Shown here: positions 13,881-17,769 of the stretch, in pieces
Layout: every line of letters begins with the position of its first letter
How positions within the stretch are numbered: position 1 is the first letter of the stretch
Assembly (NCBI GenBank): GCA_048939995.1
Contig: JBHLOY010000007.1
Location: 32,001-96,000, forward strand
Direction: 5' to 3'
DNA: 64,000 nt
DNA from: Promethearchaeota archaeon
Lineage (GTDB): Archaea > Asgardarchaeota > Lokiarchaeia > Sigyniarchaeales > SOKP01
Made by a program: the position numbers and the translations under genes
The notes under the pieces: generated by a model
What the model was told of the DNA's origin: nothing
Databases searched by the model: none
The model's input: the letters and a program-made list of their open reading frames with translations, nothing else

Positions 13881-14402
13881 TTAAAATATCTGTTTTTCTA
13901 ATATTCTTTTTGTTAATAAGTCAAAAGCAAATTTTACATTTTCTCCAGATTTGCTCGAAACTCGTAAATAGTCAAATAAATTAAAATCGCTCTTAAAATT
14001 CAATGCATATTCATCATTAACCATAATTTCATCCTGTAAATCGTTCTTTGTACCTAAAAATAAGATTGGAAGGTTTGGATTCCCCTTTCGACAAATATTA
14101 ACCCACTGTTCTAGATTTTCAAGAGTTATAGGGCGTGTTAGGTCGAACATAAGCAAAGCACCTTTCGCTCCTAATACATAACTTTCCAGCAAGAATCGAA
14201 AACGTTCCTGGCCTCCAAAGTCCCAAAGTTGGAGCGTACAATGTTGGCCGTCGATCTCAATCTCTTTAAGGAAGAATTCGACTCCGATCGTCATTTTTGT
14301 CTCAGCTGAAAACCTTCCTTCAACATAACGATGTAAGAGTGTTGTCTTACCTACACCTCCTTCTCCAGCTGTCAGGATCTTAAGTATAAATTTTTTAGGC
14401 AC
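13881..14402 (-). CDS. Rab-like small GTPase (paralog of 12819..13352)
   Basis: GEGGVGKT, TIGVEF, WDFGGQERF, GTKND and SSKSG. Confidence 0.93.
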   Translation of the reverse strand: MPKKFILKILTAGEGGVGKTTLLHRYVEGRFSAETKMTIGVEFFLKEIEIDGQHCTLQLWDFGGQERFRFLLESYVLGAKGALLMFDLTRPITLENLEQWVNICRKGNPNLPILFLGTKNDLQDEIMVNDEYALNFKSDFNLFDYLRVSSKSGENVKFAFDLLTKRILEKQIF

Positions 14403-17315: not shown

Positions 17316-17405
17316 AGAATAATTAGATAATATTATATTTTATTAAGGAACACTTAAAAAAATTATTTTTCGTTTTAATTGAATTAAACAAATTAGAAAA
17401 AAGTG

Positions 17406-17591
17406 TTTTAACCACAAAAATTTTAGCGTTTCTGGGTTCAGATGGGACCAGGTATTTTCCTGTTTTACCATGACCGTAGCCTAAGCCACAGTTAGAAAGT
17501 TCCCACAAATCTCAATTGCAGTACTGATTTCAACGCAAAACAGTTTAACTTCCAGCGCATTACGATATGGATATGATTTTTGTGGTTAAAA
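17406..17591. repeat. Perfect 16-bp inverted repeat flanking the permuted 5S gene (putative processing stem)
   Basis: TTTTAACCACAAAAAT at 17406-17421 and ATTTTTGTGGTTAAAA at 17576-17591 are exact reverse complements. Confidence 0.9.
17430..17549 (-). rRNA. rrf: 5S rRNA, circularly permuted gene (3' half 17549-17485, UUAG linker 17484-17481, 5' half 17480-17430)
   Basis: The minus strand reads GUUAAACUGUUUUGCGUUGAAAUCAGUACUGCAAUUGAGAUUUGUGGGAACUUUCUAACUGUGGC-UUAG-GCUACGGUCAUGGUAAAACAGGAAAAUACCUGGUCCCAUCUGAACCCAGAA. It shows helix I (GCUACGGU/ACUGUGGC), helix II (GUAAAACAG/CUGUUUUGC), loop C (CCCAUCUGAAC) and loop E (AGUA/GAA). Total length is 120 nt. Confidence 0.88.
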
Positions 17592-17769
17592 AATCCATTA
17601 AGACCATCTTATAAGCTTGGCTAACTTTTCTCAAAATAGCTTGCTTATATGGTTTTAAGTAAATAGAATTAATAAAAGCTACTAATTAAATTTTATTATT
17701 ATAAACCATTAAATTTAAAAGCTAAAGTTCAGAGTCTGTTATTATCTAGAAGAACTCCGTCTATTAGAG

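What the first reader, a model, noticed from the sequence alone, without database searches (positions are those of the whole stretch)
17430..17549. Circularly permuted 5S rRNA gene in an Asgard archaeon
Seen in sequence: the minus strand of this intergenic gap contains every 5S rRNA element, but in swapped order. The canonical 3' half comes first (17549-17485), carrying GUUAA, the helix II 3' strand CUGUUUUGC, loop E AGUA/GAA, helix IV and the helix I 3' strand ACUGUGGC. A UUAG tetraloop follows, then the canonical 5' half (17480-17430) with GCUACGGU, GUAAAACAG and ACCUGGUCCCAUCUGAACCCAGAA. Helices I (8 bp) and II (9 bp) pair fully, with several G-U pairs that work only on this strand, and the unit is exactly 120 nt. 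Established: permuted RNA genes are known for Thermoproteus SRP RNA, some Thermofilum and red-algal tRNAs, and some stramenopile mitochondrial 5S rRNAs. I know of no description of a permuted chromosomal 5S gene in archaea. Inference: standard rRNA finders would miss or half-call this gene.
Basis: partly seen in the sequence, partly recalled or inferred. Interest (0 to 1): 0.97.

Follow-up and report, generated by a model that had tools for sequence, protein, structure and literature searches.

The report
Back-to-front 5S rRNA gene, spliced circular
This Asgard (Loki-group) archaeon encodes its 5S ribosomal RNA with the two halves swapped between tRNA-splicing cut signals, and RNA from two sediment studies shows the ends joined exactly as predicted into a 120-base ring, which would explain why 5S genes seem to be missing from many of these close relatives of eukaryotes.

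Summary
Confirmed. Minus strand 17549-17430 is a 5S rRNA gene in swapped order: 3' half, UUAG loop, 5' half. Rearranged, it matches a profile of canonical Asgard 5S end to end (47.9 vs 18.3 bits). All helices covary across the family, and 32 of 36 same-genus genomes carry the locus.

Leader and trailer form a relaxed bulge-helix-bulge (BHB) whose two cuts fall at the gene's ends, and joining them restores the canonical sequence. The motif is kept by compensatory changes, and the genome encodes EndA and RtcB.

Two metatranscriptomes from separate studies each give a 150-nt contig, the shape of a closed 120-nt cycle. It covers exactly 17430-17549, joined 17549-to-17430, with the loop intact. Depth is low, and ribosome incorporation is not shown.

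The swapped order appears in 21 Asgard families; six are canonical. The closest precedent is Thermoproteus SRP RNA. I found no paper describing this for archaeal 5S. This scan has reported the arrangement many times on other Asgard genomes, twice with RNA support. Caveat: this assembly lacks 16S and 23S, so a second 5S is not excluded here.

The parts
17485..17549 (-). Canonical 3' half of 5S rRNA, transcribed first: 3' strand of proximal helix III, helix II 3' strand (17543-17535), helix V, loop E, helix IV, helix I 3' strand (17492-17485)
17481..17484 (-). UUAG tetraloop closing helix I and joining the canonical 3' and 5' ends; UUCG in most relatives
   Evidence: bridged by the RNA contigs
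17430..17480 (-). Canonical 5' half of 5S rRNA: helix I 5' strand (17480-17473), helix II 5' strand (17468-17460), helix III and loop C, ending CCAGAA
17549..17558 (-). Leader arm of the BHB: outer helix GCG (17558-17556), central helix CUGG (17555-17552), bulge AAG (17551-17549) with the predicted cut between 17550 and 17549
   Evidence: joint
17426..17435 (-). Trailer arm of the BHB: central helix CCAG (17435-17432, also the native helix III 3' strand), bulge AAA (17431-17429) with the predicted cut between 17430 and 17429, outer helix CGC (17428-17426)
   Evidence: joint
17576..17591 (-). 5' arm of the 16-bp outer leader-trailer stem (conserved AACCAC core)
17406..17421 (-). 3' arm of the 16-bp outer leader-trailer stem (conserved GUGGUU core)
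17600..17657 (-). Conserved leader hairpin at the inferred 5' end of the precursor; function unknown
   Evidence: fold and alignment; the consensus fold did not run, so covariation was not counted
17684..17693 (-). Likely TATA box (A[AG]TTTAATTA), present in all 22 family loci aligned; implies a transcription start near 17658
   Evidence: promoter function is inferred
17397..17402 (-). U6 tract, possible terminator
   Evidence: poorly conserved, weak

Best explanation
A stand-alone, circularly permuted 5S rRNA gene matured by the tRNA-splicing machinery. (1, inferred) A TATA promoter at 17693-17684 starts a precursor of about 260 nt. (2, inferred from folding and covariation) A 16-bp leader-trailer stem brings the ends together. 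A leader copy of the helix III 5' strand (CUGG) captures CCAG and forms a relaxed BHB. (3, inferred) EndA cuts after the second base of each bulge, at 17550/17549 and 17430/17429. (4, product seen in RNA contigs, enzyme inferred) RtcB joins the ends to CCAGAA-GUUAA, the canonical helix III bulge, so the 5S is released like a circular intron. (5, inferred) Native helix III refolds, and the 120-nt ring, with helix I capped by the tetraloop, is the ribosome's 5S. My odds by step: permuted functional gene 0.98, ends ligated in vivo 0.9, by EndA/RtcB 0.85, ring kept as the final form 0.7.
For: RNA runs X1 and X2 (two studies) each give one 150-nt contig. 120 + 30 is the length of a closed cycle at k = 31 (my inference). 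Each covers exactly 17430-17549, with joint 17549-to-17430 'goes back 120', 1-2 other letters per piece, no flank and no loose ends, and bridges both the junction and the UUAG loop. Runs X3 and X7 cross the ends linearly without the joint. BHB pairs are 99.3% kept in 21 family members, and all three outer pairs have two-sided changes. In 55 of 63 permuted loci (judged by eye) the best-scoring BHB candidate restores a canonical-type junction, although the break point differs between lineages. The genome has two EndA genes. One has the Tyr/His/Lys residues and is closest to PDB 3p1z/3ajv; the other lacks the His, which fits a catalytic plus structural pair. RtcB and uL18 are present. About 22 related loci carry ~30-nt BHB introns inside the 5S, which points to splicing acting on this RNA. 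Single-contig genomes G087 and G097 have a full 23S and only permuted 5S.
Against: The RNA evidence is assembled contigs at depth 5.1 and 2.9, not single molecules. A contig pools reads, so ligated-then-reopened molecules plus unligated intermediates could give the same cycle, and random-primed libraries favour circles. The junction has 3 nt of microhomology (GAA; 'both = 3'), which allows reverse-transcriptase template switching. The BHB here lacks the inner helix and its conformer is 2.8 kcal/mol above the predicted minimum. The library kind of X3 and X7 is not on record. This assembly has no 16S or 23S. Ribosome incorporation is untested.
Confidence: 0.7

Rival explanations
1. The ring is an intermediate. 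After BHB cleavage and ligation the helix I loop is cut open, giving an ordinary linear 5S, as for permuted tRNAs in Cyanidioschyzon.
For: A precedent exists (permuted tRNAs ligated into the correct order, PMC4267664). Archaeal pre-16S and pre-23S circles are widely thought to be re-linearised (PMC12918454). Contigs cannot show which form dominates, and libraries may under-sample a linear 116-nt RNA.
Against: Both RNA contigs run through the loop, and neither begins or ends there. The loop is mostly UUCG (13 of 21), which from general knowledge is a stable cap rather than a cut site. No second processing motif is seen at helix I.
Confidence: 0.18
2. The working RNA is a linear permuted 5S with free ends at the helix III bulge, as in brown-algal mitochondria. 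The joint in the contigs is a template-switching artefact.
For: Linear permuted 5S exists in stramenopile mitochondria (PMC4267664). There is 3-nt microhomology at the joint, and the two ends lie next to each other in the fold.
Against: The same exact joint appears in two studies with no contigs ending there. The conserved BHB geometry predicts ligatable ends. The break moves among helix III, loop C and loop B across lineages, including highly conserved loops, which a permanent nick would hardly allow.
Confidence: 0.08
3. A scrambled extra copy or by-product. The real 5S is canonical and lies in the unassembled rRNA region.
For: This assembly lacks 16S and 23S. Circular 5S by-products with variable ends are known in Halobacterium and Sulfolobus (PMC12558985).
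Against: No genuine canonical 5S was found in 60 genomes of the family. The one hit (G015) lies in a bacterial-type operon next to a psbY-like ORF. Same-genus G008 has a full 23S, no RF00001 hit and the permuted locus. Covariation is strong.
Confidence: 0.03
4. Assembly artefact.
For: None beyond the odd order.
Against: 32 of 36 independent same-genus assemblies, 72 contigs with the junction pattern, and an identical 151-nt contig crossing both ends in genomic order (X3).
Confidence: 0.005

Closest known systems
Permuted, circular SRP RNA of Thermoproteus tenax and T. uzoniensis (Plagens et al. 2015, PMC4731332)
   Same: Gene-level permutation, own TATA promoter, leader and trailer forming a BHB, one exact ligation site restoring a conserved element, native termini replaced by continuous sequence, gene missed by annotation.
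   Different: Here the RNA is a ribosomal RNA. It occurs in 21 families of one phylum rather than two species, and its RNA was found in sediment metatranscriptomes. Break points vary between lineages and some copies carry further BHB introns. Cleavage and protein binding were shown biochemically for SRP RNA and are untested here.
Permuted mitochondrial 5S rRNA of brown algae and other stramenopiles (Valach et al. 2014, PMC4267664)
   Same: 5S rRNA with helix I replaced by a closed hairpin and shifted ends.
   Different: There the ends lie at the three-way junction and the product stays permuted. Here the break is in helix III and is repaired by ligation, and the gene is chromosomal and archaeal.
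Permuted tRNA genes (Cyanidioschyzon merolae, cited in PMC4267664 and PMC7758197; Thermofilum from memory)
   Same: Swapped halves, matured through splicing enzymes and a circular intermediate.
   Different: The tRNA circle must be reopened to make functional ends. 5S has no such need, and the RNA contigs keep the loop.
BHB-circularised archaeal 16S/23S pre-rRNA, circular 23S in ribosomes (PMC12918454) and permuted 23S of Pyrococcus (PMC7758197)
   Same: BHB-directed circularisation of an rRNA. Circular rRNA can sit in ribosomes.
   Different: Those genes are in normal order and the join is outside the mature core. PMC12918454 says this processing applies to 16S and 23S 'but not 5S rRNAs'. Here ligation is needed to build the core.

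Membership tests
5S rRNA (RF00001) | Conserved sequence motifs over the full length | tested here: met
   Rearranged sequence 47.9 bits over positions 6-116 of an HMM from 14 canonical Asgard 5S genes; 0 of 200 shuffles hit
5S rRNA (RF00001) | Five-helix, three-way-junction structure supported by covariation | tested here: met
   95.4% of cells paired, 21 of 35 pairs with two-sided changes
5S rRNA (RF00001) | Score above the RF00001 gathering threshold (38 bits) | tested here: inconclusive
   Genomic order gives 20.7 bits, as expected for a permuted gene; the rearranged form could not be submitted
5S rRNA (RF00001) | Expressed as a ~120-nt RNA | tested here: met
   Contigs of two RNA runs cover exactly the 120-nt unit with a joint absent from the genome; low depth
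5S rRNA (RF00001) | Bound by uL18/uL5 in the large subunit | not testable with these tools
   uL18 gene present; binding not tested
BHB-circularised permuted RNA (Thermoproteus SRP type) | Gene-level permutation with native ends joined | tested here: met
BHB-circularised permuted RNA (Thermoproteus SRP type) | Leader and trailer form a BHB whose cuts define the ends | tested here: met
   4-bp helix, two 3-nt bulges and a 3-bp outer helix, 99.3% paired; relaxed form without an inner helix
BHB-circularised permuted RNA (Thermoproteus SRP type) | One exact ligation junction in RNA | tested here: met
   Same joint in two studies, resolved to within 3 nt of microhomology
BHB-circularised permuted RNA (Thermoproteus SRP type) | Mature form is a covalent circle | tested here: inconclusive
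   Cyclic contigs fit a ring but pool reads
BHB-circularised permuted RNA (Thermoproteus SRP type) | Cleavage by EndA in vitro | not testable with these tools
   EndA subunits and RtcB are encoded
Stramenopile-type linear permuted 5S | Ends at the three-way junction, product left permuted | tested here: not met
   Break is in helix III and the RNA shows it joined

The most novel reading that the evidence does not exclude
Most Asgard lineages build their ribosomes with a covalently closed 5S ring, made from a permuted gene by the tRNA-splicing enzymes. The permuted state may be old in the phylum, with canonical genes (including those of the cultured Loki family) as reversions. Break points may move through gain and loss of BHB introns in the 5S gene. 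The order of events was not tested.
Probability: 0.45. Interest if true: 0.92.

Novelty: new variant of a known kind. Interest (0 to 1): 0.83.

Why it matters
5S rRNA is universal and is usually described as easy to find in archaeal genomes (PMC4267664). Yet the authors of the circular Heimdallarchaeum genomes could not predict it (PMC8813620). A single-contig genome of matching size (G113, 3,081,793 bp against 3.08 Mbp in the paper; identity inferred from size) has two permuted copies, so this resolves a published gap. It makes tRNA-splicing enzymes essential for building a core rRNA, predicts a ribosome with an end-less 5S, and gives a character that splits Asgard families. That character bears on which 5S form the eukaryotic ancestor inherited. 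It is directly testable by divergent RT-PCR, RNase R and cryo-EM.

Tried and rejected
A strand folding failed on a length limit; folding was redone in Python. Folding z-score alone is not evidence (-1.5). RF00001 could not be run on the rearranged sequence. The sigma-70 scan is uninformative for an archaeon. I first read CTTATAAG at 17615 as the TATA box and rejected it: it is an arm of the leader hairpin, and the invariant box lies at 17693-17684. The consensus fold of the leader returned nothing. The canonical 5S in same-genus G015 was rejected as a contaminant. G157's score above the RF00001 cut-off (38.4) is a permuted gene. In 8 of 63 loci the automatic BHB search did not pick a restoring junction; several have a mismatch or an intron. 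The ~30-nt insertions were first taken for expansion segments; removal at BHB cuts restores the canonical sequence. No tree was built, so no order of events is claimed. Nine literature searches found no archaeal permuted 5S. The library lacks most subscription papers.

Full report
Observation. Rfam finds nothing at threshold and a 20.7-bit half match below it, which is also the only RF00001 match in the genome. I built an HMM from 14 canonical 5S genes of other Asgard genomes. The rearranged sequence matches it end to end at 47.9 bits and the genomic order at 18.3. None of 200 shuffles hits, the best of 120 rotations start at the loop, and a genome-wide scan finds only these two halves.

Conservation. 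The locus is in 32 of 36 same-genus genomes. The closed helix I junction occurs exactly in 72 genome contigs, mostly labelled Promethearchaeota. In 21 family members all helices covary: 95.4% of cells pair, 21 of 35 pairs show two-sided changes, and slid controls reach 34-43%. Kin are not independent and the structure was drawn on this sequence, so these figures overstate somewhat.

Processing signal. The leader reads GCG CUGG AA^G and the trailer CCAG AA^A CGC. Together they form a 3-bp outer helix, a 3-nt bulge, a 4-bp helix and a 3-nt bulge, held by a 16-bp stem (17591-17576 with 17421-17406). Cutting after the second base of each bulge (the established BHB rule, from my knowledge) gives exactly 17549-17430, and joining gives CCAGAA-GUUAA, the canonical sequence. 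The seven pairs are 99.3% kept, and all three outer pairs, which lie outside the mature RNA, show two-sided changes. Only about 37 of roughly 9,450 end pairs per locus form such a motif, yet in 55 of 63 loci the best candidate restores a canonical-type junction (classed by eye). The motif is relaxed (no inner helix) and needs helix III to switch partners, 2.8 kcal/mol above the predicted minimum. The genome encodes a catalytic and a probably structural EndA subunit, RtcB and uL18. An invariant TATA-like box at 17693-17684 implies a stand-alone transcript with a leader of about 108 nt.

RNA. Two sediment metatranscriptomes from different studies each hold one 150-nt contig covering exactly 17430-17549 with the joint 17549-to-17430. 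150 is 120 + 30, the length of a closed cycle at k = 31 (inference). Each contig bridges both the new junction and the UUAG loop, so it cannot come from a canonical linear gene. Two other runs, of unrecorded kind, cross the ends in genomic order without the joint. Limits: depth 5.1 and 2.9, pooled reads, 1-2 letter differences (same or sister species), and 3 nt of microhomology at the joint.

Is there another 5S? This assembly lacks 16S and 23S, so absence is not shown here. But 60 family genomes gave no genuine canonical gene; the one hit is in a bacterial-type operon. Same-genus G008 and single-contig G087 and G097 have a full 23S and only the permuted form.

Distribution. Inspected loci are permuted in 21 coded families: f1, f3-f11, f13, f14, f18, f19, f21-f26 and f28. 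Full-length canonical hits occur in six: f2, f12, f15, f17, f20 and f29. Break points differ: the helix III bulge in most, loop C in about 27 loci of this family (some fetched twice), and loop B in one. About 22 distinct loci carry 28-35 nt inserts, nearly all 29-31 nt, whose removal at BHB cuts restores the canonical sequence. Permutation may have arisen, and moved, by opening of such introns, as Plagens et al. suggested for SRP RNA. That is inference.

Comparison. It works like the Thermoproteus SRP RNA (PMC4731332) and meets every feature of that kind I could test. Circularity of the final form is inconclusive and cleavage untested. It differs from stramenopile permuted 5S, which stays permuted, and from the variable degradation-type 5S circles of Halobacterium. 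PMC12918454 states that BHB circularisation applies to 16S and 23S but not 5S. PMC8813620 reports that 5S could not be predicted in closed Heimdallarchaeum genomes, and a genome of that size has two permuted copies. No paper in the searchable library describes a permuted archaeal 5S ('permuted 5S' returns only the organelle paper).

Earlier scan notes. The scan lists 87 similar findings in at least 67 genomes, two with RNA junctions in Heimdall-group genomes, and earlier notes of the 30-nt introns. I reached the BHB reading before the first look-up and the introns before the intron look-up. These notes are not counted as support.

Verdict. A real feature and a new variant of a known kind. Interest 0.83; full mechanism, ring retained, 0.7.

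Noticed in passing
L006, L007, L030 (helix IV stem); L074, L085, L117, L125 (helix IV loop); L014, L015, L021, L023, L024, L027-L029, L090, L109, L111, L118, L141 (loop C): About 30-nt BHB introns inside permuted 5S genes of relatives, at three positions; removal restores the canonical sequence. This window has none.
   Followed up: partly
L031, L051, L053, L059, L201 (loop C break); L048 (loop B break): The permutation break point differs even within one genus, each with its own BHB.
   Followed up: partly
window:17600-17657 (-): Conserved leader hairpin between the likely promoter and the outer stem; role unknown. In many relatives the leader also has a GUAGC...GCUAC hairpin resembling helix I, possibly a duplication relic.
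   Followed up: partly
L067 (G097) and L200 (G110): The leader holds two CGUG-A[AG]A motifs about 30 nt apart, suggesting a nested intron at the ligation site.
   Followed up: no
L036, L038, L039, L040 (family f2): The canonical-5S Loki family often has two or three closely spaced 5S copies, each behind a TATA-like box about 25 nt upstream.
   Followed up: no
L046 (G015:C263): Bacterial-type 23S-5S contig with a psbY-like ORF in a Loki genome: probably plastid contamination.
   Followed up: yes
L098, L131, L142: The Loki-type permuted junction in contigs labelled as bacteria; probably misbinned archaeal contigs.
   Followed up: no
window:12819-13352 and 13881-14402 (-): Two Rab-like small GTPase genes flanking a PIN-like ORF (read from sequence only).
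   Followed up: no
G000:C13:51784-52104 (L205): The SRP RNA of this genome matches the model full length in normal order (70.9 bits, below cut-off), so permutation is not general to its stable RNAs.
   Followed up: yes
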